NCBI GenBank assembly: GCA_008632985.1
Contig: QPGO01000171.1
Location: 124,001 to 160,155, forward strand
Direction: 5' to 3'
Source of the DNA: Psammoneis japonica
Lineage: Eukaryota
Length of the DNA: 36,155 nucleotides
Shown: piece by piece, positions 1 through 36,155 of the stretch
Layout of the letters: each line of letters begins with the position of its first letter
How positions within the stretch are numbered: position 1 is the first letter of the stretch
Translations under genes and position numbers: made by a program
The notes under the pieces: generated by a model
Database searches by the model: none
What the model saw: the letters and a program-made list of their open reading frames with translations, nothing else
Told to the model about the DNA's origin: nothing

Positions 1-140
1 TTCCATGATGGACTCTCTTGGTCATGTGCCTGAGACTGGGTGTGATGCGCATCCTCAGATCGATTGTGAGCACAAAGCTCTCATGCACCGCGGCACAAGA
101 GACCTCAGACTGTCTGGGGAATTGGCTGCTTTGAGACATC

Positions 141-1544
141 TTGCATGCATGCAATGACCGCATGCTGGTGGCCTTGAACAGTCTCTCTTTGCTCAAGACA
201 ATGAAGCAGGGACTGCATGTTGATGCAGAACATTTGGCCAAGAATTGGTCTGTCAGTGTCAAGGACGCTGAGAACACTCTCAAAGTCACAATGCAGGGTG
301 GCATGCAAATGGTCCTCCATCCGATGCCATTGCGGAGGCTCCGGACCAATGACCGACAGCTGCGATGCAGGCGTGTTGCAAAGGAGATGTGCTCCGATGC
401 CTCAATCTCCTTGACCAAGTCAAGAAGGGGCAACACCTGTGCTCAGATCTTTGGCATGTCCAGTGGTTGGGCACGGGCTTGTCCCCTCAGATCTAAAGGA
501 CTGGCAGATGAAGCACTGTCCTTGCTCTTTGGGCAAGATGGCATGCCCCACACGACGATTGCAGATGGGGCAAAGGAGCAGGCACTGGGTCAGTTCAGCA
601 AGAAATCCAGGGAGGCTGACTGCCATGTCAAGCAGCCTGAACCCTGTGCTCCATGGTCCAACTTCATTGAGGGAACTGTTCATGAACTCAAGTGGGGTGC
701 AGGATGCAAGATGATGAAGACTCAAGTCCCAAAATGCCTTTGGGATGATTGTCTTGAGCTTGAAGCTCTCATCCGATCCAACACCATCCATGACATTTGT
801 GAGTTAGAGGGAGAGGTCCCAGAAACCACTTGTCTGGACAGACAGCCAACATTTTGCACACATGTGAGTTCAGTTGGTGTGACTGGGTCATGTTCAGGGA
901 CACAGCAGTCTCCTCATTCCCTGAGGACAAGAAAGTCTTAGGGCATTGCCTTGGTCTGAACCATGACACTGGTCCGGCTGTGATGGCAAAGACACTGAAG
1001 AACAATGGACAGAAGTCATCCATCGTTCATCCCATTGACCCTTGAACCCTGAAGAACAGTGCCACGAGATTCACTTGGCATTGTGCAAGAAATTTGATGG
1101 GCCAATGGAGGCCAAGCTAGGTGACGACGGTTGAGGACATTAATGAACCTGGTGCTGTGACCCTCACTTTTGATCCATGTGAGGACAATGCCAACCAGGA
1201 GGCTCCTGCAAGTGTGCCTGACAAGGACGATGTTCTTGATGCTGCTTTTGATGTTTGTGTGAACTCAGAAGTGTTGCTGCCTCACGGGGACACCCAACAA
1301 ACTGGGACAGTCAAACAGTGCAAGCTTGATTCGGATGGAGCACCAATGGGCAGAGCCAATGCCAATCCCATCCTAGATGCTCGTGCACATGAGGTCAAAT
1401 TTCCTGATGACCAGGAAGCTGAGTTTGTGGCTGATGTCATGGATGAGAACATGTTTGCACAATGTGACAATGAGGGCAACCAGTGCTTGCTCCTGGATGC
1501 TGTTGTCAATCACAAGACCAATGGGCATGCAGTCCAGAAGGATG
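141..1544 (+). pseudogene. Copia integrase and downstream pol linker, frameshifted
   Basis: ORFs 141-941, 830-1045 and 1121-1544 continue one pol sequence across frameshifts. Confidence 0.85.
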
Positions 1545-2153
1545 CCCACCTGTTTTTTTTTTGCCAAACGTCCATCACACCATGGCGACTCTACGGTCAC
1601 CGTTTCCTCAACGGCATCACCTTCAAGAGCCACAACAATCAACAACATTTTGTATCTCATGAACTTGTGTGCGGTAGAATTGACACATGTGAGTGTAACG
1701 GGCTCATTGTTGACTTATGCGGTCAAAAAGCGACGGGCAAAAAATTGAACATTTCAGCTGTTTTGGCTACGATCAATCAATGGCAAGGCACAGCAAGGCA
1801 CACACATGTGAAATGAATTACGTGACATCGACACATGCCAGTGTTATGGTGAGTTTATGGCTGTTGATGGGGCACATTGCGTTTGCGGTCGCCATTGTCA
1901 TCGTGGTTCGACAAGTTGTGGAAAATTTGAAATCTAAAACATTTGTGCACACAGATGCATTGTCACTCACAGGATCTACATGTCATGTGTTGCTCGACAT
2001 GCAAAGTATTTACATTTTTCACTTGTCACAATTTTTAATGTATGAACAAGGCATTAGCATTGATTGCCCAATGTGACACATGTTAAAGTCCACACATTAA
2101 CATTGGGCTTGCTGCCAGCAAAAAAAGGACGTTTGGCAAAAAAAATGGGTGGG
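1545..2153. mobile_element. Non-autonomous TIR element (MITE copy A), older and rearranged
   Basis: Inverted ends CCCACCTG(T)nGCCAAACGTCC (1545-1573) and GGACGTTTGGC(A)nTGGGTGGG (2127-2153); 1578-2153 aligns with 5592-6170; no TSD. Confidence 0.85.
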
Positions 2154-2545
2154 TTGATCTGGTGCATGAACATGGCCTTCATTGCATGGTTTTCCAAGTG
2201 CCAAAGTGCAATTGAAACCTTGGTTTTTGGAGCCAAGTTCACAGCCATGAAGCAGGGCATGGAGTCACTGCAAAGCTTGCGACACAAACTGCGGATGATG
2301 GGCATGCCATTGACTGGTCCATCCTACATCCATGGGAACAACATGTCTGTCATCCACAATGCACAAAGTCCAGAATCCACTTTAAAGAAGAAGTCAAACT
2401 CCATTTGCTGCCATGCCGCATGAGAGTTGGTGGCAATGGGTGAGTCACTCACTGGACACATTCTTTCTCGCAACTGAGATCATGTGTGGTGGCATGAAGC
2501 AAGATGAACTTGTGGGAATGCTTCTCCACGAGACACATCTGTGAA
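2154..2545 (+). pseudogene. Copia RNase H domain remnant
   Basis: IAWFSKCQSAIETLVFGAKFTAMKQGMESLQSLRHKLRMMG...SICCHAA*ELVAMGESLTGH matches the Ty1/Copia RNase H C-terminus; premature TGA at 2421. Confidence 0.9.
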
Positions 2546-3915: not shown

Positions 3916-3939
3916 TGCTGTGTGTCCCTGCCGCACATT

Positions 3940-6720
3940 AAGTGTGCTGGGTGTGTGGGTTAGCTTGTTGCTGGAGTTGTGGGGCAGGAACACAGCAGCA
4001 CCTTAAAAACAGATTTTGGGTTTTGTTTTTGTTGTCAATGTCCAGGTGGAAATCACATTGGTTGTGCTGTGTCTTGGGAGCTGGTCGTTCAGGCAGCTTG
4101 GGTTCATTGCTTGCCTCAGGTTTGGATCTGTCTGTGAAGATTGTGAATTGAAGGTCCTTGTCTCCTTCTGGCAGCTCGGCTGGAGAGAGGTCATCCTCAG
4201 TTGCTGCTGTGCCAGTGGTTGGATCAAAAATGAGAGAGTTAGCCAGCTTGTTGGCTGCAGCTGTGAAGTTAAGATGGTGTCTTTTGTCTGGGCAGTGGTG
4301 CTTCAAGAACAGCAGGAGGCTGGTGATTCTTCCTCTTGCTTCATCGGCAAGCTTGGGCAAAAGTTGAATTTGGCACACCCCTGCATCTTCTTGTCTTTGT
4401 TGATGGCTGGGAACAGCTTCTCTCTTGGGCACTTGTTGGACTGCATCTGCAATGTTGCCTCACGCAAAGATTTGCTGTTCGGCTGACTCTCTGATCTGCA
4501 GTCGAGTTCAGAGATCTGGTCTGTTGATTCCTGGCAGTCATCACTTCTCATTGTCCTGACAAAAGCATCTTGCCTGGCTTGCAGCATCCGGGCACCATGT
4601 TTAGACCTGTCCTTGAAGATGTTCCTGTGGTTGGGGATGAAACGGCAGTTCTGACCTGAGGGAAATCCACCTTTTGCTGTTGAGGAGTAAATGTGCTGTG
4701 GGGCCTTCCTGGCTTGATGTTCTTTTTTGGAATGAGCTTCAGCTTCAAAGGCACAGACCTTGTTTGTCTTTGTGTCCCACCTCTGCCCCAGTTCCCGCAT
4801 GTTAAAGTTCCTCCATCTAAAGCCTGCTTCCTGGCTCGTGTCTTCCTGGAAAGCAACCTTGAGGGCTTCACAGTTGTGGTCCTTGAAAGACCAGAGCAGC
4901 CAACCGAGCTTGGAGAGCTCCTGTGGGAGTGGCACCAAGTTAAGGTGTAACCAAGTCTTGCCATCCTGGAAGAAGCAGTTCATCTCCTCCACAATGATGT
5001 TGTGGGATTTGTTGCTTCTGAAAAAGATGTTGTAAAAGGCCTCTGCCTCTTTCTTGGTGACATGGCAATTTGTGAATGCATTCCCTCATCTGCACATCAT
5101 TCTGGGCAGCTCTCATTCTGGTTTTGCAAGAGTGGCTTTTTAGTTGAGCCCTCTCTCCATGGGCATGGAGCATGTGACGTGTCCACTTCCTGCAGAATTG
5201 AAAACATCTCGGTCAGTTAGGATGTCCCAACAACATTTTCTAACCTTGCTCTCCCTGTCCTTCTTGGTGGTGAACTCAATGATGCACGTGCACCTGCATT
5301 TGTGAGTCCTGGGTGCTGACTGCACCGCCAGTGTAAGTTGCTGAACCAGGCTCTGGGGTTGTGTTGGTCTTTTGGAGTGCTGGTCACTGGAGTTGCATGG
5401 GAGTCATTTCCGGATCTGAGTTATTTTTTTTTCTGCTAAATCACCTTTTTTTTTTTGCTGCCGGCCCCGCCACTAAAGAATGGTGGGCACATGATGCATG
5501 CAGCGGCAGCCACGCTAACTCGACAAGCACGACTCAATTCAGTACGAATTCGCCGTTTGTGCGCTGTAGACGGAAACCGCGGAAACCACCTCACCATGGT
5601 GACTCTACGGTCGCCGTTTTCTCAACGGTATTACCTTCAAGATCCACAACAAGCAACAATATATCGTATCTCGTGAACTTATGTACGGCATCATTGACAT
5701 ATGAGAGTGTAACGGGCTTGTTGTTGACTTATGCGGTCGAAAAGCGATGGGCAGAAAAGTGAACATTTCAGCTGTTTTCGCTACCAAGAATCAATTTCAA
5801 AGCACAGTAAGGCATATGCCTTTGAAATGAATTACGAGCTATCGATATATGGCAGTGTCATGGTGAGTTTATGGTTATTGATGGAGTATATTGCATTCGC
5901 GGTCGCCATTGTCGTTGCGTTTCGAAAGTCGTGGAAAATTTGAAATATCGAGCATACGTGTTTGAAGGTTTATAAATTTATATAGGATGTTCGTATTGTA
6001 TATTATGATGTATACAGAGTATTACATTTTTCTGTTATTACTAATGCATTGATTAAAATAATATATAAGTATTGATTGCTTAGTGTAAACTATATGGAGG
6101 TCCCAATATACACATTAGGCTTGCCGCCAGCATAAAAAAAAGAATGTTTAGCAAAAAAAAAATGGGTGGGTTTCCGGATGGGCCATCCTCCTCCTCTTAA
6201 GGGGTTTTGTTCTGGGCCAGGCCTCCACGTCCGGAGCAACGTCTTGGATGGTTGGATCAGCCATGACGAGTTTGAGAATGCCTGACTTGATCCCAGGGAG
6301 ATTTTCTGATGGAGTCGTGCCTGTTGGTGGCAGCTGATGGGGACAGTGTTCCTGCGTCTTCATCTTTGTTAGTTTGAGTTGATGAAGTCATCGTTTCATC
6401 CGCACTTGCATCATCAGCAGACTGTTTTGATTCTTTGACCCCAGCTGGTGTTCGGGCAACCACCCAATTGTCCACCAGCCCAATCACATGGGAGTTTGTT
6501 TTCAATTTCTTTGGTCCTCGTCTGTTTGGAAACCTTTTGGTCACCAACATTTCACGGTCCCTGACCATGGTGCTGCATGTTTTTCCATCCCGGTCATGGT
6601 TGGTCCTACAACACTGCTGGCATTGATTCCATGTGTCTGATTTGAGTGACTGTGACTTCCCTGTGCACCTCCGTGCAAGAGATGTGCCATGGCATGTTTC
6701 TCTGCAGTTTTTACCAGTGC
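3940..6720 (-). pseudogene. Probable ORF1 of a second diatom-type non-LTR retrotransposon, decayed and interrupted by MITE copy B
   Basis: ORFs 4303-4992 and 3938-4432 carry LGWLLWS, FRWRNF and YSSTAKGGFPSG..RF, resembling ORF1 of diatom LINEs (recalled, not searched). Confidence 0.5.
5416..6170. mobile_element. Mutator-like non-autonomous element (MITE copy B), 755 bp, recent insertion
   Basis: Perfect 9-bp TSD TTTCCGGAT (5407-5415, 6171-6179); imperfect ~50-bp A/T-tract TIRs (5416-5465 vs 6123-6170); keeps TpA and CpG unlike its flanks. Confidence 0.85.
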
Positions 6721-8310
6721 ACGATGTTGCAGATCTTAGAGAAGTTTGTCTTGATCTTCACGGCCTCAACCCATTTGTTGGCCTTATGACTGTGCACAGC
6801 TTCATGCAGGGATGGCATGTCAGGGTCCTTGTGTTTCTTTGTAGTTGCACAAACCCTGGGATCATCAATGTTGCAGGTCTGTGAATCAACACAGGTGTCC
6901 AGAGTGGCAAGATGCGCAAACTGTGCTGCAGTCCCATGCAACTCATCTTTTGGGTCCACCGGTGTGAAGAAGACTTTGTCCACGAACCTTTTAGACAGCA
7001 ACTGAACCACATCAGGTGGGTCCAGTGGAGGTGGTTTGAAAGCAGCGCAGATGCAAGCAGCTCAAGCTGGCTTCCTCTGTTTACATTGCAGTTCATCCGG
7101 GGTTAGCCAACTGTTGTCTAAATGGACATCTTGACCTGTCTCAAGAAGCATCTGGACAGATTGGTCCAGACATGACTCTTCCCAGTGGCTCGGCACCTCA
7201 CTGTCACTCTCAATCGAAGATGCAGCAGCAAAGAGATCATCAGACATGACATGGCACTGGGGAGCAACACTGCCAGTCTGCAGATTAAGGAGAAGAGGGA
7301 CCTTGCTTGAGTGGATGTTGCTCAAACCAACAAAAGAGACCACAGCAAGTGCATGGTTGCCAATGGAGCAGTTTCTTGCCTTGTTGAAGTGCAGGGTCCA
7401 GGACATGTGCTGGACACCTCCAGACGTGGATGTCATGAAGACGATGTCTGGGAACTGTTGTGCCAGTAAAAACATCTGCAGGGCAATGACCCTGCACGTT
7501 GGGAGTCACATTGTAAATGTGAGAGGCATGGGACAATGCCATGGGCCACAGAGAGCTGTCAATGCCCCCTTTCCAGTGGATGGACACATGAAGCAACATT
7601 GCTCTTGCCATGTTGGAAACTGACTGAATGCTCTGCTTTGTCATGCCCATCTGATGGTGGGCATTTGTGCGACAAATTTGGATCCATTGTTCATGTTGTC
7701 ATGCATGTTGCTGGAACTCATTGGCCTTGAATGCACCTGAATCAGCAAGAAATTCTTGAACAACAACACCATGATCTGGCGTGTGCTTTTCATGTGCTTG
7801 TTTTGCTTGTGCCATCTCAACAGCCAAAAAACCTGGTTGGTGTTTAATGTGGATGCATCCAGAGGCATGATCAACAAAAACCCACCCTTGAATTGTTTGG
7901 ACAAGGCCTTGCTGCAGAAGTCACAGGTGTGACCAAGCAGACGGGATGATCAGCTTTCAGTGTGCTGTCACGTTCTGGGACCAAGGCATGTTTGGCAGAA
8001 TGAAGGGAACATCTGTGCCCCTTTGCATGTTCACAAACTTCACACTGTGGGTGGTCACACTTGGACTCAAACTTAAATTTCGGTTGGAGAAACCGCTTGG
8101 CACAGAGTGGGACTTGAACCCGTGCTAGGTTCACATGACCAAACCTGGAGTGCCATTCCAAAAGCAATTTCTGGCCAGCGGCAAGGTTCTGATTGTCCTC
8201 ATTCAACATTGCAAGGTTGACTTGAGGAGCTGGGGTGGCACCATTGGAGGCCATTGCAACAGGCAAGTGCAACAGAGGCCGCAATGCAGCGGTGTTCAAT
8301 TCTCTGCACA
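6720..8310 (-). mobile_element. Degenerate Copia pol fragment: GAG-pre-integrase, integrase core, start of RT region
   Basis: LLEWHSRFGH..CEVCEHAK (HHCC); SNMARAMLLH..LWPMAL..IYNVTPN; HVWRCPAHVLDP..GKKL..W; LLNLQTGSVAPQCHV.SDD; DPDMPSLHEA. Confidence 0.9.
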
Positions 8311-8800
8311 TCATTTTTAACAATTGACGTCATGTGTGTTAATCGTTTGTTTGGAAGTTTTGCATGCAAGAGGCAATGTTACACTGCCTTTATTTGACGC
8401 GTTTTATTCAGACAATTGTTGCCTGTTTCTTTTCATTTATTTTTAACAATTGATTTAAAAAGATGCCCTTTGCTTGATTCTGATGCATTACAATTTGACA
8501 ACAATGTTGCTTTTATTGTCAAACGTCATCTTTGACATTTGTTTTCAATGGCTCCAACTCGCACATGCCTCACTGTAGTGGCTGGTACACCCTCTGCGCC
8601 CAAGTCACCCCCATGTGCTTTTCCAGCACTTCCCAGAATTTTAGTGCATGGCTCTCTACCCGATTTTGAGCACACATTCTACATGCGTAATCATCTGTGT
8701 GTTTCATGACAGCACATCCTCTCCCCAAACTACATTTGACCAGAGCATGTGCTGTTGTGATTCACGCACATTCTACGCAAATCACAACTGACTTCTTGCC

Positions 8801-19990: not shown

Positions 19991-22131
19991 TTTCCAGTGG
20001 CCTGGATGAAGACCCGACTTGGTTGAAGTGGAGGTGGGTTCTGCCCATGATTTGAATTTTCCATGAACATCCTTGGCTGTGAGAAAGTTGGATGCAGACA
20101 CTGGGGTGCGTCTACGAAGATGCTTGATCAAGAGAGCTGATGCTTGATCAAGAGAGCTGTAGCTTCCGTCATCCCGAGCACAGAATGCTTGCCATCAAGA
20201 ATCAAATCAGCCATGATGGCATTTCTTTCACACCCTGAGTCAATCAACAGAGGAGGAACAGTTGGAGGAGTGCCATGAGCCTGACCAAAATGCTTCTGAT
20301 TTCTTGCAATCAAGGCGGCCGCAACATCTTGGGGAGCACCAATTGTTTCCCAGTTGTCGCATGCTTTGGGATCCTCCAACGGATTTGCGGGGACTTGCTT
20401 GCACCTCACTGACACTGAAACCATCCTTGTCTTCAAATGCACTAATCTTTCAAAACACACAGACTGTCTCCTCTGCACATCTTATGTTCCGAAGAATTTT
20501 TGCCTCTTCAGTTGCTTCAGGAGTTCCTTCAAGGTCCAGTTCTGCAATCCGAGCATCTTGTTCTTTTTCTCTGTGATGCAAACTGGCTCAAGCAACCTGT
20601 CTGCATTCGGACTGGGCTCAACAAAGGGCATTCTGACATCATGCCAAGGCAGAGGGGAAAAGGAAGGACTCTCCTGCAGTTTACATTTTTCTCGAACAAT
20701 CGAGTGCACAAAGGCAGTCCTGTTTTTAAACATCGAGAGAAGGCGAGACAGAATGAATGCTTTTCTTTGTGGGTCTGCCAGTTTTTGGGACCACTCAGGT
20801 TCATGACATCATCAACAATGCTTTGCAGTGGAGATGCAAAATTGAGTCATGTCATAGTCCAAACGTTCTGCTGGTTCATGGTCCGGATGGTCCGATTGCA
20901 GGAGAGGTTCACTTCCAGCTAACACATTTCGACTGTCAAGCATTGGACCGATTGCTTTACGGCAGGTCGTAACATGCTTTGGTGATTTTGCAAGAAGGGT
21001 GCAGTGAGAAGAACGAGGGATGTCCACGGAGGAGTTTCCGAACAACAACTCTGCATTGAAGTCCACACAGTGCGCTCGGTGGTGGGAGGAAATCCTGCAT
21101 CCGAAGGGTTCACACCCACAAGCTGTCACTGCTTGGAGAGCACCTGATGTGGCTAGGACGTAGTCGAGATGGCGGGATTCTCATGGGCAGGTGGCAAAGT
21201 CGAGATCCTGCATTTGGTTGCACATCACATCTGAGAGCTTGAATCGAATCACCAAGTGGGCTGGGGAGTCGGCATCATGTCAAAAATCTGTGTTGAAGTT
21301 GCCAAAAAGAACTGCTTTGTGATTCGGTTCATCCAAGAACATTTCCAAATCTGGGATAGATCACAACAAAAGGTGTGTCACGGGTCAGGTCATGCTCTAC
21401 CTTGTTGTTGCAGTGAGTTGACTTGTTGGGCACAGGCTGTTGTTTTCCCTGCAGAGGAGGCATTGTTTGAGCACACTCAGTGGCAAGACACAAACATGAC
21501 TTGCTTGCCCTGCTTGCCATCAAAAAATTTGCGTGGACCATCTTCCCAACTGGTCAAGCATCTTGGTGCGGCAGCGAGATGCAACTGAATTGCAGGATGT
21601 GATGGCAGTGCCACCTGGCTTGCATGGAGTTGTGAAGGGAGTGGATGATGCCAAAAAGGAGACGCAACCATGGTGTGGTGTGTTCTGGACTACTGACCGG
21701 CATGGATGGGCCATGGAGGGCTGAGAGGTGTTGAGACAGGTCTCTGACATCCCAATGACATCCTTCTGAATTTCGTTAATGACCTGGCAGAAGGAGTTGA
21801 AGTTGCCACCACGAGAGTCAGAGGAACAGCCGTTTGCATTGAACGTGCAGAGATGAGCAACATCTGGAGTTTTTGGACCAAGCGGGTCCCCAACAGCTTC
21901 ATTTGATTTTAGATTCAAACAGTCAATTGTTTGAGGGGGCAGAGAATGTTGTCTGCTGTCAAGGAGATGACTCCATTGTTGGGCGGCTTTCTGCAGAGAG
22001 GCAGATGAGGGCACATTCGGAGGGATCCCCTGTGGAGCAGCGGGAGTGACAGCAGGAGAGAAGGGGCACAACCCCTCATGTTGTTGCCATGCTCCCTCAA
22101 AGGGAGACTTGAAAAGACACATTATCTGCAT
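19988..22131 (-). pseudogene. LINE ORF2 N-terminal part: APE endonuclease and linker to RT
   Basis: ORFs 21520-22131, 20812-21129 and 20128-20478 (RNQKHFGQAHGTP); FKSW.E.TSTS..GLHPGHWKA. Confidence 0.88.
20119..20158. repeat. Perfect 20-bp tandem duplication GATGCTTGATCAAGAGAGCT x2
   Basis: Read directly; frameshifts LINE ORF2. Confidence 0.95.
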
Positions 22132-22149
22132 CTGTTGTTGTGGGCAAAG

Positions 22150-23833
22150 AAGACAACTTGGTCAGCCCCACCAAAAATGCGAGTCTTCAAGGGAAGTGTC
22201 TGTTGAGGAATTGTCCGGGGGCTCCTCAGACGAAGCTCCAGCAGGGGCACTGGCTGTTGGTTTCTTGCACACAGGAGATGAGCAGGCATCCGATTCTGGT
22301 TCTGGGAGGGGCAGCCAAGCCTGAATGAAGGTCTGCAGTTCCGTGACAAGGTTGTTGATTTGAAGCTGATGCTTTTTTGTAAGGTCCTGTTGGAGAGCAG
22401 CCACAGATTGCTGATGTTGCTCTTCAATCTTTGTCAGCCTAGCTTCATTTTCTTGTCTCATACGTGCAATTTTTTGTTTTAAATCATCCATGTCACACGC
22501 ATGATCTGTGAGGTCGGAGGCAGCAGCAGCAGGCGAAGGTTCAGAAGGGGATGAGTTGAGGACTTCAGCAAACGTTTTGAAAGGAGGAACTCCAATGTCA
22601 GTGGGAACCGGAGGAGCGGGAGGAGCCGTGCTTGTTGCTGCGGGTTTGGGTGGAGCATCTGCACTGTCTTGGGATGTGTCAGAAATGTCAAGTGAGTTCC
22701 AGCTCTTAACACTGGCTGAAAATCGTCAGAAATGCCTGGAATCATGGGAACCAGATGGCCTGGGGTTGGCAGAGCATCGGCGGGAGATCATTCAACACAC
22801 TCTGAAGATTCTGTGAGACACATGCACAGACAGACTTGTGATGTTTCTTGGACACCAAAACATTAAACCTGGAAAAGGCAGTCTTCCTCTTTGATGGAAC
22901 AACGTCTGTGACACCTTCAAGAATGATGAAACGGGGACGAAGGAAGAAGTTGAGATTGGCGGCATAATGCAGAAGAGGAACCACACAAGTCATTGCCTGA
23001 AGCTTCTGTTGGTGTTGAACAGCCTTCTTGTACACTTTGATCTTGTTTTGTGAGCAACGCCAACGGGACAGGATTGAGAATCTGGGACAAGTTTTCAGGA
23101 TTTCCAGCAACACCTGAACAACATCTTTTGCCTTTTCATGCGGAGTTTTGATTGAACAGAATTTAGCACGGACAGACTTGTCAGTCAGAGAGGTGATCTT
23201 TTGAGGGACGAGCCAAGTGGGCAGTTTTGCTCTGTGACCCTTGGGTGCAACTGCTTGAATGCTCTTGACAACGACGTTGGTTGTGCAGCATTTTGGGAGA
23301 AATTCAGAGACTTGATCTGCGTGAACAAGATTCACGACCGTTTCGTCCCATTTGTGGTGATGCATGTAGATGGAGTTAGTTTGGAGGGTTTTAGTCACAA
23401 AGGGAATGTCTCGGATGTCCGGAAGAGTCAGGGACGCATGGATGCGATGAACAATCACATGCGTTGGCTTACAATGACGAGAACCGCTGATGCAATGAAT
23501 CACGAAATGTTGAGAGTGAGCAAGGCCAGTGGTCCATTCAACCACATTGATTTCCACAATCAGCTTTCCATGATTGGAGAAAATGGACATCTTGTTTGCA
23601 AGAGGGTCCTGAGTTGCTTTCTGTTGTAAGGTTTGTAACACCTGCATGTGGCCCATGGCCAGCACAGTGGATGCGTTGGCATCGTCAGAGGTGTGTTCGA
23701 AATGGAGGGTGATCTCTGTAGTTCCATCACTGTTTGAAGCACGGTTGCTGGCACGGGCAGGAGTAGAAGGCACATCTTTGTTGTCTTTGGGTGGATCAGG
23801 GGGATCTTTGACAGTGGGGTTAGCCTGCGGCAT
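22150..23833 (-). pseudogene. LINE ORF1
   Basis: ATG at 23833 (MPQANPTVKDPPDPP); ORF 22742-23971 followed by coiled-coil-like ORF 22162-22491, directly upstream of APE. Confidence 0.7.
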
Positions 23834-25210: not shown

Positions 25211-25212
25211 AC

Positions 25213-27725: not shown

Positions 27726-30700
27726 CAGCTGCACATCATTGCAACAATGCCGCCTCTCAGCAAAGCACTGAGCACTCTGCTTAAGGCGAAGAAAGCCTGC
27801 AATGGCAGCCCCCAGTTCGACGGAACTGAAGAACAGTGCTTTGGAGCATCACCTCAAGACAACAAATTGTGCAGTGCAGGAGAACATGACCAGTCAAGCG
27901 ATTGTGAAGTTACACAAGTCACACCCCAAAGCAGCGGACGACATTGCGAACCCAATCAAGTGCAAGGTTGCACCTGACCCAGAAGAACCGGAAGACACGG
28001 TGGCATTCTATGTCCATCAGTGTGATGCCTCCAACAAGGAAAAGCACCTGGTGTTCTTAAAGAACTTTCATGAGTTAAGAGAGCTCAAGCACTGGACTGC
28101 CAGACCAGCCCTCCATTGCCAGATGCTGTGCCGGACCAAAGGCTCCACAAAGGACTGACATCAAAGAGCTGTCAGAGCTCTAGTTGAAGACCCACAAGAT
28201 CTTACCCCAGAACAATTTGATGCAGCAGCAGAGACCGTCACTGCTGGATTGCTTCCGCAAAACTCAGCGGCGGCACAGAAACAGTGCTTGCGCTCCACAC
28301 GCAAGCCAAGAGAGTCTGCCTTCATTGATTTCACCTCCAGAGTTTTGGAAATCAATGAGCTGGGTGCCCTGCATGAGAGGCTCTGCAGAAGAGAGAGCCC
28401 CTCTCACCAACCAAGAGTTGACTCATGCAGCAGAGCAAGCTGTGCCGGATGATTGGCACAAGAAATTCCAACTGTCCACTGGACACAGAGGTGAGCATGG
28501 CATGGCAGACTTGGAGACATGCTGTTCCACCATTGAATCCTTCCTGCAGAAGAAGAAGGCCCACAAGAGAGAAGGTTGTCAAGTGACCAACGGTGATTCC
28601 AGAGACGTGCCCCCACTCATGGCTGCCGAACCGCATTCAGACATGGAGGCGACCGAGCGATGTGACCGAGCAACAACAATAATGACAACGCCGGAGCTCC
28701 TCCCAACCAACCACATCGACATCCTGCTCGACACCAAGCCAACTCACAGCGTGATGGGAACCGTCCTCAAGGCTGTGGTCAACAGAGAGGATGTGCCCAA
28801 ATGAACCGGCAAGAAACACATGCCGTGAACGAGCCAGAAGAAGCTCTGCCAGTCCAGAACCCGGACAATGGTGCAGACACAGCCCCAGCGGAACAACTGG
28901 AACAACTTGGCATAAGAGATGATGCTGAACCTGAACCTTACAAACAAGAAGACGGACTTGAGACACAGGAAGACGATGCAAGCTGTTCTTGTGAAGAATC
29001 AGATGGAGAACATGACACTTACGTGGAAGAGAACCATTGCATTCTGTTGCCAGAAAACTTTGAGCTGCAACAGAGACAGAGACCTCCTGTGGACCCAGCA
29101 GAAACATCTGACGAATCCAGCCTGCCGGAACTCGTGCCACACGGCAGATCAACATCGACAGACAGCGATGATTTGTGGAGCACCGACAGCAGCATGTCAG
29201 CAGTGTCGTGGACAACCTCACACATGTCGTCTGTGGACGAGCTGTCATCTTTTGGAGAAGATGCCGATGATGAGTGCGATCCTGTAGACAGCGCAGACGA
29301 GCGCGCATCTCTGACATCATCAATTTTTGAACATGACAGCACGGACGCCCAGAAGTTGATGGAGGCATTGTGTCCAGATGGAACGGACAATTGTGACTAC
29401 ACAGTGTTCCCTCATGGAGGCACACATCCTACGAGAAGGGGCTCATGTGTTCCAGGTCACCCAGATGAATTCGAAGAAGATGAAGGACATTCAAAAACAT
29501 CCAAAGACACCGAACCCCACATGTGTGAGCAATGTCACTCACTTTCTCATCGAGCAACTGCATCTAAGACGAAGCAAGCTGTGTCGGCAGATGAACTTGT
29601 GAACAGCGAGTCTGACAGGAAAATGTCAGTGGCTCCAGAATCTGACACCGATGAAGAGAGCATCCACATGACACATGAACTTGTGCGAGCCGTGGCGCCT
29701 GAGCCACAACCATCAGCACAAATGCCTGAACCAGATCCTCACAGTGATGGTGACGAGCATTTGAGTGCATTTGGTGATCACGATTTTTTTACTGTGAACC
29801 TGGCACAGTGCACCCAGATGATGAAGAGCATTGCACTTGGTTCCACCAAGAGGAAGAAGTCCTTGGAGATGGCATGTCAGACCATGTCAGAGAACAAGAA
29901 GAAGAGCAAAGTGGCAACAAGAAGCTGAAAAGACATGCAGCACAAAAGCCCAAAAATGCAAGTGGAAGAACCCCGGATGTGTGGTGCGACTTCAACTGCT
30001 CGATCCAGTTGATGGGACTTGAGACAAAAGTGACAATTTTTCACTTGCCTCACTCGACAGCGGCAGCAGTCGAACAATGACAAAGAGAGATGTGCTCTCA
30101 AAAGGGACACTGGATGAGGCCACCTTAGTGCCAACAAAGTGGGAGACTTTGTTTGTGCAGACCCATCAGACAACTCATGTGGCACTCACTCGTCATCAAT
30201 TCCTTGATGCATCCTTGCACAGACAATTCGATTTGTGCTTTTACATTTCACCCTTACAAGGAATCTACGATGCTGCAATGGGACGAGATGTCCTGTTCAA
30301 GCTTGGGATGAAGCTTGATTTCCAAGAAAAAGTCATAACTTGGGATGACTTGTCCTTTCCGATGAGATGTCCTGAGGATTTTTGGCACCAACCGATGATG
30401 CAAGAAGAGCTCATGGTGGCTCGTAAGGCCAAAGCCATTTGCCCAAGTGACTGCAGTCCTGTGGAGGACTTAAGAGAGTGTGTGCCCGACCACTTGTCAA
30501 GAGAGCAAGGTGAAGCTCTCATTGCCTTGCCAGAAGACTTCTCCAGTCTCACGCAAGGAGAGCTCGGACAATGCATCAAGCGACCACCAGTCAATGTTGA
30601 GCTTAAGCCCAGCACCAAGCCCATCATGTGCCAACCTTACAGCATGCCCCAGATCAACTGCAACATGGCAAAAGGAGAAGCAGAGAGATTGTGCCGAGTG

Positions 30701-31619
30701 GGAGTTCTGAGAAGGATCTCAGACTCAGCTTGGGGATTTCACTCAATGTTCACACCAAAGAAAGGTGGTGATTGCCAATTTGTCACCGACTTTCGGCTGT
30801 TAAATCGATGCATGCAACGACGCCCGTGGCCTCTACCTTTGATGCCAACCATGCTGCGAAAGCCACACGGCTGTGCTTGTGTCACCGCGATCGATTTGAA
30901 CATGGGATTTTTCTCGATGCGGATCAGACAGAAGTGTCAGCAGCATCTGACTGCTGTGCTGCCGTTTGGCAAATGTGCTTACTGCAGATTACCAATGGGA
31001 CTTGCACCAGCCCCAGACACATTCCAAGAAGTCATGACTGACCTGTTAGGACACTTGGAATTCGCACTGATTTTCATTGACGACCCATTGATTGTTGGCA
31101 AGGGATCCTTTGATGATCACCTTGCCCAATTGCGTGAAGTATTTGTGCTTTTGAATGATGCAGGCTTTAGAATAAATTTGCGAAAAACTTTCTTTTGCAC
31201 TCTAGAAATGGAGTGCCTAGGGTTTGTTGTTGCTGGAGACGGAATCAAACCGCAACCGAAAAAAGTCAATGCGATTGTGAATTTGGTTTCGCCCAAAACA
31301 AAGAAAGAACTCAGAGGTTTTGTCGGAATGATAAACTTCTGTTGCGAAATGTGGCACCTTTGTTCCCATCCATTGGCACCTCTTTCGAGCATGACCTCGA
31401 AAGCAGTCAAGTTTGAGTGGAAACCCGAACACGAGCAAGCGTTTCAAGAAACCAAGAGACGGATCTCTGCCAAGATGCTTCTTGCCTGCCCTGATTTCAA
31501 TGAGATGTTCTACATCTACACCGATGCTTCGAAATGCCAGCTAGGCAGCGTTGTCATTCAAGGCAAGCGCCCGATGGCATTCTACTCCCGCAAACTCTCC
31601 GACACGCAAAAAAGACATC
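27726..31619 (+). mobile_element. Degenerate Ty3/Gypsy retrotransposon (gag, acidic spacer, protease, RT, start of RNase H), truncated by a Copia insertion
   Basis: Gag AQKQCLRSTRKP..F.SRVLEIN, EL..A..AVPDDW; protease LDSGSS at 30053-30070; RT FVTDFRLLN, AIDLNMGF, RLPMGL, FIDD, FVGMINF; RNase H YTDAS..LG, AFYSRKL. PR-RT-RH order. Confidence 0.93.
30044..31619 (+). pseudogene. Gypsy pol (protease-RT-partial RNase H); frame open but conserved residues substituted
   Basis: ORF 30077-31651 plus in-frame upstream DSG; the last codons run into the Copia LTR. Confidence 0.92.
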
Positions 31620-31789
31620 TGTCGCGGTCAGCCGTCCGACGTACAGACTGACAGACTGTACCTCGTAGAGAACAGCTCGTGCTGACTCAGTGGGATGATG
31701 TTGAAGATACCTCTGAAGTGACTGACGTGGATAGATCATAGACCGTAGAAGTGGCAAGCCTCTAAAGCTCACAACATCTTCACAAGACA
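31620..31789 (+). repeat. 5' LTR, 170 bp (TGTC...GACA)
   Basis: Starts exactly where Gypsy RNase H homology stops; 4-bp inverted termini; followed by a PBS-like motif and gag ATG. Confidence 0.7.
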
Positions 31790-31801
31790 GGTTGTGAAGC
31801 C
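31790..31801 (+). promoter_or_regulatory. Putative primer-binding site GGTTGTGAAGCC
   Basis: Directly after the LTR CA; resembles the GGTTATG-type half-tRNA-Met PBS of Copia elements with TA changed to TG. Confidence 0.45.
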
Positions 31802-31846
31802 TTTCGTTACCTCAGCAATTTTTGCAACAACACTCACTGCTCACCA

Positions 31847-34000
31847 TGGCCCCATCCAAGTCCAACAAGGCTGACACGCCCAAAAAGGACAAGAACTCTT
31901 CTGAACCGAAGAAGAAGTGCAATGTCGCGACGCCCTCACCAACTGGTGGCAAGGAATCGACAAGCGAAGAGCGCACACCCCGCAAATGCGGTGGGAAAAC
32001 CGAAAAGGCGATCGGCAAAACAGCCGACGACACGACGACGAAGTCACGTGATGATGTCAATCCACCAAACCTGGATGCCAAATGTGCCAATGACGCGCGT
32101 AAAACCGATGACGTCGACTCTATTGAGTCAGACAAAGACATGTCCAAAATGGACATTTCTGATGATGAAAGTGTCTCGTCCAAAACATCCGACGCGGGAA
32201 CTCCACGCAAAACTCGCACCAGGAAGCACCCATCTGAGCGCGCACGTGACCGCCTCACCGCGAAGATAAATGAACAGGCTGCTGGTGCATACGCTGACAA
32301 GCATGTCCAGACGCTAGCTGAACCGCTAGAGGACAAACTCACTGAAGACCCAGAGTCATTCTTTGACTTTTTGTTTTGTCTCGAGGAACGTCTTGAGACA
32401 TGTCCAGCATGGGACAAAATCAAACTCGTGGGTGACACTAAAATGTCTTTAACTAAAGACTTTCCCCAACTGTCCCTTGTGGACTTCGAGTCCTTTGCCC
32501 TAGAGCGCTGGGTCCTTGAAGAACCAGACAAAGTCCGTGAGCTCTGCAACGACCAGACATCCAAGCACTTCGCTCAACGCGCGTTAAAGCAACTGCTTGT
32601 CGCGTCATTCGACAAAGAGCTATGGATGCGTTCCAGCTCTAGGTGGAACCTCGTACTGCTGCACTGTGACATCAACAGTTTTTTGGATCGCGTCGTATGT
32701 CGCGCACACACATTTCTACGTGTTACATTCTACGAAATTGTTTCATGCTCCCTGTTTTGCAAAGCCAAAGGCTTTCTATTTTTTCAACAGTTATGAGAAT
32801 GAAAATGTGCTGGGCACACTCTTTAATGTCTGTAGAACATGCCCGGGCAAACTGTTGTTGATGTGCTCCAAGTGTGAAGGAGGAAATACGTTCGTAAAAT
32901 TGCCTCTTTTTCTGTTGGCGATCATTCGTATTTTCATTACAGCATAAATTTACTACGGAGCTCGCACGTAGAATTCTACGGGCCCAATGTCACACGGAGT
33001 CCCACCCAGGACTGGAACCCATCTACGTCAGGACATTGCCCCGGACATGAACAAAGCATGCCATCGCGATGGCTCCACGTGCTTCTTCTTGGCTTGCCAG
33101 AAGCTCTTTCCATCGCCTCAGATGCACATCAACAACATCCAGTCCCAGATGTTGAAGATCTCTCTGGTCAATGACTGCGACAGCAACGTTGACAAGCACA
33201 TGAGCAAGTTCCGCCAGCACTTGTGCTTGCACACTCAGTGCGACAGCATGCTCGAGTGTGCCCTCGTAGAAAAGGCATTTGAAGAATTCAAGACTGCCCC
33301 TTGCAAACCCTTCGCGGACGAGATGGCCAAGAATGAGACAGAATGGATGCACAAGACACAGGTCACGTGGACAATCAAGACCCTGTTCAATGAGGCGATC
33401 AGCCTCAAGAACGCTTGTGTGGCCCAGCAGATCTGGGATGAGCCCTCGGACAACGACACTCAACTCATGGCCCCAATCACCGGTCAGAAAGAGACAGTCG
33501 GATTCGCGCAGCAAATGACCAAGGTCGCGACCGCCTTACAGAGCACCCTGCACCAGCAGACACGATTCGAACGTCACGGCCATTATAACAGGCACGGCAA
33601 TCCAGGTCGCGGTGGTCGTGGTGGACATCATGGGCGCGATCGCCCTGGTGCACCTAGTCGTGGATCCCCGCCGTTCTTGCATCTCGAACCCGAGAACAAG
33701 TCTCAGGAAAAACAATGGGGTGACAAGACCTGGCATTGGTGTGATGCTTGTAAAATGTGTTCTACACGCCACAGCACCGACACCCATGATGAGTGCATTG
33801 CTGCAAACAGCAACAAGAGCGGCAAGCGCACATCCAACCAGAGCGGCGGCGTGCAGAAAAAGAGCGCCTACGACCACAAGTGCCAAAAGGTTCAGTCTAA
33901 GATTCAGGCTGACATTGATAAGTTGCAGAAACTCACTGCCAACTTTTCTTTCTCCAAATCTGTTGCTGCTCTTGAGCAACAGAGGGGAGACGGCAATTAG
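31847..34000 (+). pseudogene. Copia gag interrupted by a 400-bp insertion
   Basis: Removing 32623-33025 joins ORFs 31822 and 32987 in frame (SFDKELRQDIAPDM). Confidence 0.85.
32623..33022. mobile_element. 400-bp non-autonomous TIR element
   Basis: CTA direct repeats at 32620-32622 and 33023-33025; imperfect TIRs ATGCGTTCCAGCTCTAGGTGGAAC..GTGACAT vs reverse complement ATGGGTTCCAGTCCTGGGTGGGAC..GTGACAT. Confidence 0.8.
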
Positions 34001-34078
34001 ATGCTCCTAATTCACCACACACTTAAGATCCGGTTTTAATCAAATGCTTTCCTGGAACGGTCAAAATAAAAGCAAAGT

Positions 34079-35921
34079 GTGAAACTAGCGCCATCTGTGC
34101 TAAAACTGCACCAGCAACGACATGGTTTAGCAGGAGAGATCATTGACAATGCTCATGCATTTGAGATGGCTCTCGAGAACCGCGGACGATTCATCCGTGG
34201 TGGCCCCGTGCAAGCGAAACCCCGCTCCACGTCTGCATTTGTTGATGAACGTGATGTGCCACAACTGGTCAAAGTGTGTGAAACTGTTGACTCTAGAACT
34301 CCTGAAGAAAACAAGGAGTTACCAAACACTTTAGCAGAACATGCTGCATGCCTCACAGACATGGCACCTACCCTGACATCAGATGAAATTCACTTGGTGA
34401 TCGATTCCAGTGCATCTGTCACCATCACAAACAATGAGAATGATTTTATAGGGTGTGTAAGACCAGCTCAGAACTTGAACTTGAAGGGTGTCGCTTCAGG
34501 CCTCTCCATGGAAGGCATTGGCACGGTGAGATACTCCTTCATGGACGACGCCAGTGTCAACTTCACCATCGACACAGAAAACGTGTCATGCATCCCTGCC
34601 TGCCCGGTCAGACTACTTTGCCCACAGCAAGTGGCAGCCACAAGTCCCAATCAGGATGCTGATGGGTTCTTTATATGCGGCAGTTCTATGACAATGATTC
34701 ATGGGCAGCATCGCGAGACAGTGCGACATCAATCATGAATCACATCTACCGATTCTTGCTGCTGCACCAGGCTTCGGTAACTGCCAAGCATTTTGCTCTG
34801 ACATAAGAGCTGATGGCACTTTACCATCACGCACCAATGTTAAAGCACACTCGGCTTCGTGTCCGGCTTTTGCTGTCACAACACGAAAGCAAAAGGTGGC
34901 GGCCGACACAAAGGTCAGACCGACTCAAGCTGACAAGCAAAATGAAACCACAAATAAGAACGGCAAAAAGGCCCGGCCTACCCAGCCTCAACAAGCCTCA
35001 CCAGTTCACGAGGGAGGCACAGAAGACAATCTACTCCCCATTCAATGCGATGTGTTAAAATTACATCATCGCATGGGCCACGTTGGATTCGAACAAATCC
35101 GAGAATGGGCCAAAATCGGCATGGTGCCGAAACGCTTCGAAAAATGCAAAGCCCCGGTCTGCAAAGCTTGTGCACATGCTAAAGCAAAGCGCAAAGCTGC
35201 GCAACGTGGTCATTGAATTGATGAACGCCACGACCACGCTCCAGGTCGAGGTGTGTTGGCGGACCAACTCGACATGAGTCATCCAGGCCCACTTCCCACT
35301 GCTCGTGGCAAACCAACCACTCGCAGGTACAAACACTGTGCCCTGTGGATTGATCATTTTTCTAGATTTATCTGTCCACACATGCAAGAGTCTGCTGGAG
35401 GAAAAGAGACTTTGAACGGCAAAACCAAGCTCGAAAATGTGACATCAAAATCGAGCACATTCATGCCGACAATGGCACATTCGCCGCTGCAGAGTTCATC
35501 GAACACTGCGTTGAAAATAAACAACGGAACTCCTGTTGTGGAGTGGGAGCACACTGGCAAAACGGCATCTCCGAATGCCACACAGGCGTTGTCACCTCAA
35601 TGGCACGCACGCACCTGTTGCACGCTCAGTCCCTGTGGTCTGATGCAGTGACTACCGAATTATGGCCATGCGCCATTCGACAGGCTGTCAACTTTCACAA
35701 TGTGTGCATCAGAAAGGGCAAACAGAAAAACCCCTGGGAACCATTCACCGACAAGAAACCGCCATTCCAAATGGATGATTTTCACATGTGGGATGTCCCG
35801 TCTATGTCGCCGACAAAAGTGTCCAAGACGGGACTCACATCGGAAGATGGGCCGAACAGTCATGACAAGGAGTGTACGTGGGACATTTGCTGGACCATGC
35901 CAGCAATGTCCACCTGGCATG
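34079..35921 (+). pseudogene. Copia pol: protease, GAG-pre-integrase, integrase (frameshifted)
   Basis: ORFs 34079-34738, 34701-35216, 35253-35651 and 35543-35959. Confidence 0.9.
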
Positions 35922-36155
35922 TGAAGCAAACTTCTGCGTCATTGCGTCAGCAGCTGTGAGATTTGGGAGATTCGAATGACCGGGATTGTTGACACCTTGA
36001 AGAAATTCTGCGACAGAAACCTGAACACTGTGGCTGCAGTCAATCGCAGCTTTTCCCATGATTTTTAGAAAGCATTCGTGGACAACTTATCAAGACCATT
36101 CACTGTGATCACACTGTGTCTTGTTCTTTCCTTCTCTTTTCTTTGTTGTGCATTC

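What the first reader, a model, noticed from the sequence alone, without database searches (positions are those of the whole stretch)
1..36155. Window-wide TpA to TpG/CpA hypermutation of transposons: candidate 'reverse-RIP' genome-defence system
Seen: TpA is scarce in all old elements and TG/CA are abundant. Residues whose codons contain TA are swapped at conserved motifs in unrelated families. Gypsy: GKCAYCRLPMG (GKY.Y), ECLGF (EYLG), LACPDF (LAYPDF), DASKCQLG, ASLDSG (LLDSG), DDPLI (DDLLI), GEAERL (EV), YDAAMGRD (VIGRD). Copia: LRCRR, RACPL, EPCAPW, LRHKL, PQCHV. At 2409-2429 tgc cat gcc gca tga gag ttg (expected YHAVRES) shows TA>TG, TA>CA and CG>TG side by side. Established: 5mC deamination explains only the CG changes, and fungal RIP creates TpA rather than removing it. 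Inference: a second process, A>G at TpA on either strand, acts on genomic DNA of silenced repeats. It hits LTR, LINE, MITE and orphan sequence on both strands, which argues against RNA editing or RT error. Candidates are a DNA adenine deaminase or modifier, or error-prone repair tied to methylated chromatin. I do not know of a description of this, but could not search.
Basis: partly seen in the sequence, partly recalled or inferred. Interest (0 to 1): 0.92.

Follow-up and report, generated by a model that had tools for sequence, protein, structure and literature searches.

The report
TpA-to-TpG/CpA hypermutated retrotransposon graveyard
This stretch is a pile of dead retrotransposons in which nearly every T-A step has been turned into T-G or C-A, the mark of a mutation process so far reported in only one alga.

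Summary
TpA is at 0.20 of expectation over 36 kb (470 seen, about 2,368 expected). TG and CA are at 1.6 and CG at 0.48. The TG+CA excess (2,751) is 2.4 times what CpG loss (1,124) can supply, and TpA loss (1,898) fills the gap.

Outgroup polarisation shows the direction. Conserved Tyr survives at 2 of 15 Gypsy columns and 0 of 11 Copia positions, mostly as Cys (TGY) or His (CAY).

A repeat pair in the window shows one copy with TG/CA where the other keeps TA, 34 times against 3. This loss (79%) is more complete than its CpG loss (48%).

Two young islands rich in TA and CpG sit inside the tract. Surviving TpA is strongly biased: RTAY is nearly gone and YTAR is retained.

Independent contigs match the window exactly, so this is not an assembly artefact.

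The transposon proteins here are closest to diatom sequences, so this is probably a second lineage. The enzyme, and whether the process spares host DNA, could not be tested because no genome is held.

The parts
1..36155 (.). TpA-depleted, TpG/CpA-enriched, CpG-depleted tract made of retroelement debris
   Evidence: Of 243 stop-to-stop ORFs of 70 aa or more, only retroelement domains gave Pfam matches above weak level.
48..1591 (+). Copia A: integrase and linker part of a Copia-type polyprotein, heavily mutated (0 Tyr in ORF 135-938)
   Evidence: 1,829 homologues. Homologues carry RVT_2 downstream. tblastn maps the element.
1572..2155 (+). D1 copy 1: mutated copy of a short repeat, sitting where the Copia A RT region (about 490 residues of the homologues) is missing
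2118..2532 (+). Copia A C-terminal part. It includes 2409-2429, which reads ICCHAA*E where homologues read ICYHAVRE.
   Evidence: 60-72% identity to full-length homologues.
5401..6300 (.). Island with near-normal TpA (0.67-1.13) and CpG mostly 1.2-1.7 (0.49 in the last 300-nt window). It contains D1 copy 2 (5586-6172), the little-mutated copy.
7874..8329 (-). Copia B: GAG-pre-integrase domain
   Evidence: PF13976, E 5e-7.
14863..15987 (-). 375-aa ORF that resembles RNase H-bearing clusters; a lead only
   Evidence: Atlas scores 0.91-0.96; no Pfam match.
17490..18156 (.). Bin holding a very high-copy segment (summed contig depth 75,317 against about 35 for unique contigs)
   Evidence: table 2.
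21523..22161 (-). Possible LINE endonuclease remnant
   Evidence: PF03372 at E 9e-4, 19.5 bits, below the cut-off of 24.5.
23224..23456 (+). D2 copy 1 of a 230-nt repeat. The second copy is at 25285-25515, 91% identical.
   Evidence: The differences are mostly CG against TG/CA and CA/TG doubles.
28666..29925 (+). 420-aa open frame upstream of the Gypsy RT, without a Pfam match (presumed gag/protease part)
   Evidence: The gag/protease reading is an inference from position.
30023..31648 (+). Gypsy pol fragment: RT plus RNase H (P0001)
   Evidence: PF00078 at 2e-17 and PF17919 at 6e-16. Polarised against 38 homologues.
32560..33100 (.). Island with TpA 0.64 and CpG 1.11. It lies in a young, very high-copy repeat (depth 17,972-57,122).
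34070..35956 (+). Copia C: weak Pol_BBD match, GAG-pre-integrase domain and downstream frames
   Evidence: PF13976 at 1.4e-6 and PF22936 at 3e-3.

Best explanation
After they inserted, the Gypsy, Copia and other repeat copies in this window were hit, copy by copy and on both DNA strands, by a transition process specific to the TpA step. It turns TpA into TpG on one strand and into CpA as read from the other. This ran alongside ordinary 5mC-type CpG decay.

The process is faster than CpG decay and runs close to saturation. It prefers TpA flanked as R-TA-Y, with TAT/ATA lost most and TTAA least.

It is the same kind of process that a 2026 preprint demonstrated in Bigelowiella natans on integrated viral DNA. 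Here it is seen on retrotransposons whose proteins are closest to diatom sequences.

Shown here: the signature, its direction, its context, its presence on both strands, its unevenness between copies, and that it is not an assembly error.

Inferred: that it is aimed at silenced or foreign DNA rather than at all DNA, and that the agent is an enzyme. The leading candidate is an ADAT2/TadA-type adenine deaminase acting on DNA, whose natural tRNA substrate already has U before the target A. An enzyme that modifies T at TpA would give the same outcome.
For: 1. Budget. The TA deficit is 1,898 and the CG deficit 1,124, against a TG+CA excess of 2,751.

2. Baseline. 78 related Gypsy loci from metagenomes have TA obs/exp with a median of 0.80 and a range of 0.54-1.18, even where CpG is nearly gone. 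The window's Gypsy is at 0.18.

3. Direction in the Gypsy.
- Conserved Tyr is kept in 2 of 15 columns, against 140 of 211 other columns (p 7e-5).
- The replacements are C6, F5, H1 and I1.
- Leu>Pro is always CCA (3), Ile>Met is ATG (3) and Ile>Thr is ACA (2).

4. Direction in Copia A.
- Tyr is kept at 0 of 11 positions (C8, H3), against 245 of 322 others (p 3e-7).
- Lys 15/15, Gln 8/8 and Trp 7/7 are all kept.

5. Context, from the D1 pair.
- The fraction of sites differing by a transition is 0.27 and 0.38 in the TpA context.
- It is 0.13-0.19 at CpG and 0.02-0.09 elsewhere.
- Copy 1 has TG/CA where copy 2 has TA 34 times, against 3 the other way.
- TA loss is 34 of 43 and CpG loss 11 of 23 (p 0.013).

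6. Unevenness. TA-rich, CpG-rich islands lie inside the tract.

7. Flank bias. Outside the islands RTAY makes up 5.7% of surviving TA, against 26.4% in the control loci. YTAR makes up 42.7% against 24.7% (chi-square p 1e-24). Survival ratios are TAT 0.34, TAC 0.93, TAG 1.16 and TAA 1.60.

8. Reality of the sequence.
- Four contigs of run X1 (707, 2,328, 1,050 and 790 nt, depth about 35) match the window with no differences.
- Five unrelated metagenome proteins show the same Tyr-poor, Cys-rich pattern.

9. Precedent. In the preprint, 230 of the 231 single-nucleotide mutations in the two viral regions are A>G or T>C, and all of these fall on TpA. The rate is about 6e-7 per site per generation.
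Against: - No host gene, intron or single-copy intergenic DNA is available, so targeting of transposons is not shown.
- Among the 40 best-supported places where other genomic copies differ from the window, CpG-type differences (14) outnumber TpA-type ones (5). Four CA/TG doubles are ambiguous between the two. A further 2,515 places were not shown.
- D2 and the two smaller repeat pairs show few TA-type differences.
- Five of the 13 lost Tyr in the Gypsy are Phe, which needs an A>T transversion that this process does not explain.
- D1 also has 48 transversions, and its 3' half aligns poorly.
- Run X1 may be the sample the window was assembled from, so it is not fully independent.
- No deaminase or other candidate gene lies in the window.
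- TA and CG depletion correlate across bins (rho 0.41), which age alone would also produce.
Confidence: 0.7

Rival explanations
1. Genome-wide context bias. In this organism all unconstrained DNA loses TpA by the same transitions, and dead transposons merely display it. Nothing is targeted and there is no defence.
For: No neutral host DNA could be compared. TA and CpG depletion rise together across bins, as age would predict. The whole 36 kb is affected apart from two short islands.
Against: The little-mutated D1 copy and the 32.6-33.1 kb repeat keep TA-rich sequence that looks non-coding. A long-resident, active lineage could not do that under a constant background faster than CpG decay. In B. 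natans the same signature is local, about 1,000-fold above the rest of the genome.
Confidence: 0.15
2. The same targeted TpA process, but the chemistry is on thymine. T at TpA is modified (5-hydroxymethyl-U or base-J type) and mispairs with G, giving T>C. Adenine deamination plays no part.
For: TpA is self-complementary, so T>C on one strand and A>G on the other cannot be told apart in any of my counts. The RTA/TAY flank bias reads equally well either way.
Against: Nothing here speaks for or against it. No modification data and no enzyme gene are available. The preprint's only candidate is an ADAT2 homologue.
Confidence: 0.1
3. RNA-level A-to-I editing of transposon transcripts (ADAR-like), fixed by reverse transcription, so that copies are born mutated.
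For: The elements are retroelements. According to the preprint's discussion, ADARs favour U before the edited A. Tyr>Cys (14) outnumbers Tyr>His (4) over both families.
Against: - Sense-strand T>C is common: 20 CA against 14 TG in D1. Leu>Pro (CCA), Ile>Thr (ACA) and Tyr>His also occur.
- Raw TG and CA counts on sense strands are 1,042 and 1,148.
- TAG is retained and TAT is lost. As I recall, ADARs prefer a 3' G, which would predict the opposite.
- The B. natans targets are DNA viruses.
Confidence: 0.04
4. Sequencing or assembly artefact, such as a modified base at TpA being misread.
For: The pattern is extreme and regular. X1 may be the same sample as the assembly.
Against: Contigs at about 35x depth are identical to the window over 4.9 kb. 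Islands with normal TA lie within the tract. One repeat copy is mutated and the other is not. Proteins from separate JGI and ENA metagenomes carry the same pattern.
Confidence: 0.01

Closest known systems
TpA hypermutation of integrated viral DNA in Bigelowiella natans (Mettrop et al., bioRxiv 10.64898/2026.01.13.699255). I read the abstract, Introduction, Results, Discussion and term passages. I did not read the Methods, and the supplements are closed.
   Same: - The changes are TpA>TpG and TpA>CpA only.
- The long-term signature is low TpA with high CpA+TpG in clustered 1-kb windows. 25 of 36 bins here pass that paper's own cut-offs.
- RT, endonuclease-RT and DDE domains are enriched among TpA-depleted coding sequences.
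- Insertions are affected unevenly.
- The enzyme is unknown.
   Different: - Here the targets are LTR and other retroelements, and the signature is near saturation (0.20, against 0.45 for their NCLDV region).
- A flank preference is visible here. Their main text mentions none.
- CpG decay is superimposed here.
- The transposon proteins point to a diatom-like host, not a chlorarachniophyte, but the host is unresolved.
- No mutation-accumulation data exist here.
Repeat-induced point mutation (RIP) of fungi
   Same: Repeats are inactivated by context-specific transitions, leaving a dinucleotide scar.
   Different: RIP is C>T, mainly at CpA, and creates TpA. Here TpA is destroyed and GC rises. Dependence on duplication was not tested here.
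5mC deamination (CpG decay) in methylated transposons
   Same: It also acts at a self-complementary dinucleotide and yields TG and CA. It is present here too (CG 0.48; Arg>Cys, Gln, His or stop).
   Different: It explains only about 1,124 of the 2,751 excess TG+CA, and it cannot remove TpA.
APOBEC editing of LTR retrotransposons and ERVs (PMC4866542; search listing and start of abstract only)
   Same: It is a deaminase footprint preserved in genomic retroelement copies, and it is read as a defence.
   Different: APOBEC editing is C>U on cDNA, giving strand-specific G>A. Here the change is A:T>G:C at TpA on both strands.
ADAT2/3 and TadA adenine deaminases with reported DNA activity (as cited in the preprint for amphioxus and Trypanosoma)
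   Same: They make A>I, which is read as G. The natural target A34 follows U33 in tRNA (recalled textbook knowledge), which would give a TA context.
   Different: No such gene was examined here. Activity on chromatin DNA, and any targeting, are unproven anywhere.

Membership tests
B. natans-type TpA hypermutation | Changes are almost only A>G / T>C | tested here: inconclusive
   Transitions at TA sites dominate D1 (34 TA-loss events). But D1 also has 48 transversions, in part from poor alignment, and 5 Tyr>Phe changes occur in the Gypsy. Old copies carry other decay as well.
B. natans-type TpA hypermutation | The changes fall on TpA, giving TpG or CpA | tested here: met
   Transition fractions are 0.27 and 0.38 at TpA, against 0.02-0.09 in contexts that are neither TpA nor CpG. 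Tyr codons become TGY or CAY.
B. natans-type TpA hypermutation | [quoted passage not shown] | tested here: met
   33 of 36 bins pass the first cut-off, 26 of 36 the second and 25 of 36 both.
B. natans-type TpA hypermutation | Confined to foreign or integrated DNA while the rest of the genome mutates normally | not testable with these tools
   No genome is held and the window has no host gene. The only indirect support is the unmutated islands.
B. natans-type TpA hypermutation | Ongoing, measurable high rate in some lineages | not testable with these tools
   It needs mutation accumulation or pedigree sequencing.
Fungal RIP | C>T at CpA in repeats, raising TpA and AT content | tested here: not met
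   TpA is at 0.20 and CpA at 1.59. The direction is TA>CA/TG by outgroup.
CpG decay by 5mC deamination as the sole cause | The TG+CA excess is matched by the CpG deficit | tested here: not met
   The excess is 2,751 against a CpG deficit of 1,124. Related elements with CpG down to 0.04 still have TA of 0.54 or more.
ADAR-type RNA editing fixed by retrotransposition | A>G on the transcribed (sense) strand only | tested here: not met
   Sense-strand T>C is frequent. Raw TG and CA counts show no sense-strand excess of TG.
APOBEC-type editing | C>T / G>A in strand-coordinated clusters | tested here: not met
   The changes are at A:T pairs. A runs test on the 34 D1 events gave 16 runs against 17.5 expected (p 0.36).

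The most novel reading that the evidence does not exclude
TpA hypermutation is not an oddity of one chlorarachniophyte. It is a widespread system of marine protists that edits individual retrotransposon copies. It is seen here in a genome with diatom-type retrotransposons and in at least five unrelated metagenome proteins. It inactivates elements faster than 5mC decay and has its own extended motif (R-TA-Y, with TAT/ATA preferred and TTAA spared). That motif is the fingerprint of a still unidentified DNA adenine (or thymine) editing enzyme.
Probability: 0.4. Interest if true: 0.85.

Novelty: new member of a known kind. Interest (0 to 1): 0.64.

Why it matters
Natural enzymes that edit adenine in genomic DNA are not established. 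The only report of TpA-directed hypermutation is one preprint on one alga and on viral insertions.

A second case would do three things. The targets here are ordinary LTR retrotransposons, the signature is near saturation, and the host's transposons look diatom-like.
- It would widen both the host range and the target range of the process.
- It would supply an extended motif with which to screen candidate enzymes and the existing mutation-accumulation data.
- It would give a simple screen for other genomes and metagenomes: TpA <= 0.4 together with CA+TG >= 1.5, plus Tyr>Cys at invariant RT and integrase residues.

There is also a practical point. Loss of TAA and TAG leaves long open frames in all six frames, which can mislead gene prediction in such genomes. 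Here there are 243 frames of 70 aa or more and 54 of 150 aa or more.

Tried and rejected
- Whole genome: none is held, so transposons could not be compared with host DNA.
I sent ORF lists instead.
- Earlier findings of this scan: nothing by place or by words.
- Sequencing runs: no RNA holder is listed. X2 and X3 hold next to none of the sampled words.
- The search for related loci found nothing with P0001 in metagenome contigs. It also found nothing with the hypermutated P0040 in genome contigs or viral contigs. The DNA behind the Tyr-poor metagenome proteins could therefore not be read.
- The search for homologous proteins found nothing for the Copia C frame 34698-35213 with 'longer' lengths.
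- The protein atlas was uninformative for ORF 22745-23989, with scores of about 0.8.
- Host identity: two cluster look-ups gave no organism names. The only named relatives are diatoms at 40-50% identity. That does not settle the host.
- Gypsy LTRs: no LTR pair was found. The contig joints at 25280/25288 to 32703/32704 coincide with a weak 70-nt similarity (score 41, against a maximum of 33 in shuffles). I did not use them as insertion borders.
- Strand-coordinated clustering of D1 events was not significant.
- Sense against antisense asymmetry showed no excess of TG over CA in raw counts.
- No tRNA genes and no Rfam families were found.
- Literature: seven searches on TpA depletion or hypermutation, deaminase or defence, B. 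natans transposons, ADAR or DNA editing, diatoms, and TA-dinucleotide A-to-G. They returned only the one preprint describing this process.


Full report
**Observation**

The window has 48.8% GC and an extreme dinucleotide profile. TA obs/exp is 0.20, CG 0.48, TG 1.63 and CA 1.59; all other dinucleotides lie between 0.89 and 1.19. There are 470 TA, against a mean of 2,366 (sd 36, minimum 2,273) in 200 shuffles.

Every 1.5-kb bin has TA at 0.07-0.47. TAA (157) and TAG (113) are rare beside TGA (882). That explains why 54 stop-to-stop frames of 150 aa or more, and 243 of 70 aa or more, are open.

With the cut-offs of the B. natans preprint (Rho TpA <= 0.43, Rho CpA+TpG >= 1.52), 33, 26 and 25 of 36 1-kb bins pass the first, the second and both.

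The depletion is not quite window-wide. Bases 5401-6300 have TA at 0.67-1.13, with CG at 1.2-1.7 in all but the last 300-nt window. Bases 32560-33100 have TA at 0.64 and CG at 1.11.

**What the sequence is**

Pfam on all 243 frames found only retroelement domains:
- Gypsy RT and RNase H at 30023-31648 (+).
- GAG-pre-integrase domains at 7874-8329 (-) and 34698-35213 (+).
- A weak Pol_BBD match and a sub-threshold endonuclease match at 21523-22161 (-).
- Two weak matches that I take for chance.

The frame at 135-938 has 1,829 homologues. They carry a Copia-type RT downstream. tblastn with full-length homologues maps a Copia element at 48-1591 and 2118-2532. About 490 residues of RT are missing between these two parts.

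No tRNA gene and no Rfam family is present. No host gene was recognised.

**It is not CpG decay alone**

The deficits are 1,898 for TA and 1,124 for CG. The excess of TG plus CA is 2,751. CpG loss can supply about 40% of that excess.

As a baseline I took 78 related Gypsy loci from metagenomes. They have TA at a median of 0.80 (range 0.54-1.18), even where CG is as low as 0.04. The window's Gypsy has 0.18. These loci were picked by motifs that contain Tyr, so they lean towards intact copies.

**Direction of change, Gypsy**

I compared P0001 with 38 of the 114 homologues found.
- 226 columns are conserved at 70% or more, and 142 of them are kept in the window.
- Tyr is kept in 2 of 15 columns, against 140 of 211 others (p 7e-5).
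- The replacements are Cys 6 (TGY), Phe 5 (TTY), His 1 (CAT) and Ile 1.
- All three Leu>Pro are CCA, three Ile>Met are ATG and two Ile>Thr are ACA.
- Arg>Cys (3) and Arg>Gln (1) are the CpG share.

**Direction of change, Copia A**

I compared Copia A with 12 full-length homologues. These were the first 12 of more than 1,300 residues among the 84 hits.
- 333 positions are conserved and 245 are kept.
- Tyr is kept at 0 of 11 positions (Cys 8, His 3), which gives p 3e-7.
- Lys 15/15, Gln 8/8, Trp 7/7 and Asn 11/12 are intact. Arg is kept at 15 of 30.

**Context at DNA level**

The window holds few internal repeats. The best pair, D1, is 1572-2155 against 5586-6172 (594 columns, 75% identity).

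| Difference class in D1 | Count |
|---|---|
| TA against TG/CA | 37 |
| CG against TG/CA | 16 |
| CA/TG doubles | 4 |
| Other transitions | 20 |
| Transversions | 48 |

The 3' half of D1 aligns poorly, which inflates the last two classes.

I then restricted the count to sites whose neighbour is conserved.
- The fraction differing by a transition is 0.27 (A/G after T) and 0.38 (C/T before A).
- It is 0.13 and 0.19 at CpG, and 0.02-0.09 elsewhere.
- The asymmetry is strong. Copy 1 has TG (14) or CA (20) where copy 2 has TA, against 3 cases the other way.
- So 34 of 43 TA are lost, against 11 of 23 CG (p 0.013).

A pair has no outgroup. The polarity rests on the protein results and on copy 2 lying in the TA-normal island.

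The 34 events show no strand-coordinated runs (16 runs, 17.5 expected). The other three pairs are short or saturated, and they show mostly CpG-type and CA/TG double differences.

**Flank preference**

| Class of surviving TA | Outside the islands | 78 control loci |
|---|---|---|
| RTAY | 22 (5.7%) | 26.4% |
| RTAR | 80 | not compared here |
| YTAY | 119 | not compared here |
| YTAR | 165 (42.7%) | 24.7% |

The difference from the controls has chi-square p 1e-24. Inside the islands RTAY is the commonest class (31 of 84).

Pooled over both strands, the survival ratios against the controls are TAT 0.34, TAC 0.93, TAG 1.16 and TAA 1.60. In D1, 1 of 24 RTAY sites kept TA, against 6 of 15 YTAY sites.

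The preprint's main text mentions no context beyond TpA. I could not see its figure 2B or its tables.

**Strand**

Both outcomes occur within single elements. Raw counts on the sense strands of nine oriented segments are TG 1,042 and CA 1,148.

Tyr>Cys outnumbers Tyr>His 14 to 4 over both families. The TAY flank preference would explain this without any strand bias. That explanation is an inference.

**Is the sequence real?**

Run X1 holds 51% of the sampled words. Its contigs were laid on 16156-36155.
- Four pieces (707, 2,328, 1,050 and 790 nt, depth about 35) are identical to the window.
- 7,705 contigs matched at 80% or more.
- Summed depths reach 75,317 and 57,122 in two bins, so the families are high-copy.
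- Places with other letters are mostly transitions (2,094 against 461 transversions).

Only 40 of 2,555 such places were listed. Of these, 14 are CpG-type and 5 are TA-type, four of which show TA in the other copies. Eight places form 4 CA/TG doubles, 8 are other transitions and 5 are transversions. This small sample does not show TA-type dominance, and I count it against my reading.

X1 may be the sample behind the assembly, so it is not fully independent.

Independent support comes from proteins of separate JGI and ENA metagenome contigs that carry the same pattern:
- P0040 has, at 17 Tyr columns, Y3, C9, H2 and F2.
- P0101 has 0% Tyr and 5% Cys.
- P0060, P0119 and P0364 are also Tyr-poor.

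**Prior description**

Seven literature searches returned one paper on this process: bioRxiv 10.64898/2026.01.13.699255. I read the abstract, Introduction, Results and Discussion.
- In B. natans mutation-accumulation lines, 231 of 302 nuclear single-nucleotide mutations fall in two integrated viral regions.
- All but one of these are A>G or T>C, and all of those fall on TpA. The rate is about 6e-7 per site per generation.
- The hypermutation appears in 11 of 15 lines.
- The genome has 124 clusters of TpA-poor, CpA+TpG-rich windows.
- TpA-poor coding sequences are enriched for RT, endonuclease-RT and DDE domains.
- An ADAT2 homologue is proposed as the candidate enzyme.

**Host**

The host is unresolved. 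The only named relatives of the transposon proteins are diatoms.
- Cyclotella cryptica, at about 40% identity to the Gypsy.
- Thalassiosira sp., at 47-50% identity to Copia A.
- One atlas cluster with two diatom members.

I estimate about two chances in three that this is a stramenopile rather than B. natans.

**Mechanism**

Shown:
- The process acts after insertion.
- It acts on both strands.
- It is specific to TpA and sensitive to the flanking bases.
- It differs between copies.
- It is faster than CpG decay.

Inferred:
- An enzyme directed at silenced or foreign DNA. Adenine deamination by an ADAT2/TadA-type enzyme fits the U-A context of its tRNA substrate (recalled knowledge). Modification of T at TpA would give identical data.
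- The link to silencing. It rests only on the correlation of TA with CG depletion across bins (rho 0.41, p 0.012), which age alone would also give.

**Verdict**

This is a new, probably second-lineage, example of a process that has only just been described, and it adds retrotransposon targets and an extended motif to that description.

Noticed in passing
window 30023-31648 (Gypsy positions 296, 297, 351, 401, 439): Five nearly invariant Tyr are Phe (TTY). This needs an A>T transversion that the TpA transition process does not explain. The metagenome protein P0040 shares 'NFC' where the consensus is 'NYY'. It may mean that active lineages replace Tyr by Phe to shed target sites, or it may be plain family variation.
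   Followed up: partly
proteins P0040, P0060, P0101, P0119, P0364 (metagenome contigs up to 18 kb): Unrelated Gypsy and Copia proteins from JGI and ENA metagenomes are Tyr-poor (0-1.3%) and mostly Cys-rich, like the window's copies. The same hypermutation seems to exist in environmental protists. Their DNA could not be fetched.
   Followed up: partly
window, all six frames: Because TAA and TAG are rare, long open frames abound on both strands: 243 of 70 aa or more, many overlapping. Most have no family match and are likely not genes, which is a trap for gene callers.
   Followed up: partly
window 17490-18156 and 32164-33497: These are very high-copy segments, with summed contig depth 18,000-75,000 against about 35 for unique sequence. 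Contig joints link 17.7-17.9 kb with 32.9-33.0 kb. This suggests a short dispersed repeat of roughly a thousand or more copies.
   Followed up: no
window 12359-12538: A tandem repeat of a 72-nt unit, about 2.5 copies at 75-78% identity. It lies inside an open frame (11867-12751).
   Followed up: no
window 24268-24395: An inverted repeat with 40-nt arms, 85% complementary and 48 nt apart. It could be the ends of a small foldback or MITE-like element.
   Followed up: no
window 1591-2118: The RT region of Copia A (about 490 residues of the homologues) is absent. The D1 repeat (1572-2155) occupies the gap, so there was either a deletion with an insertion or a non-autonomous derivative.
   Followed up: partly
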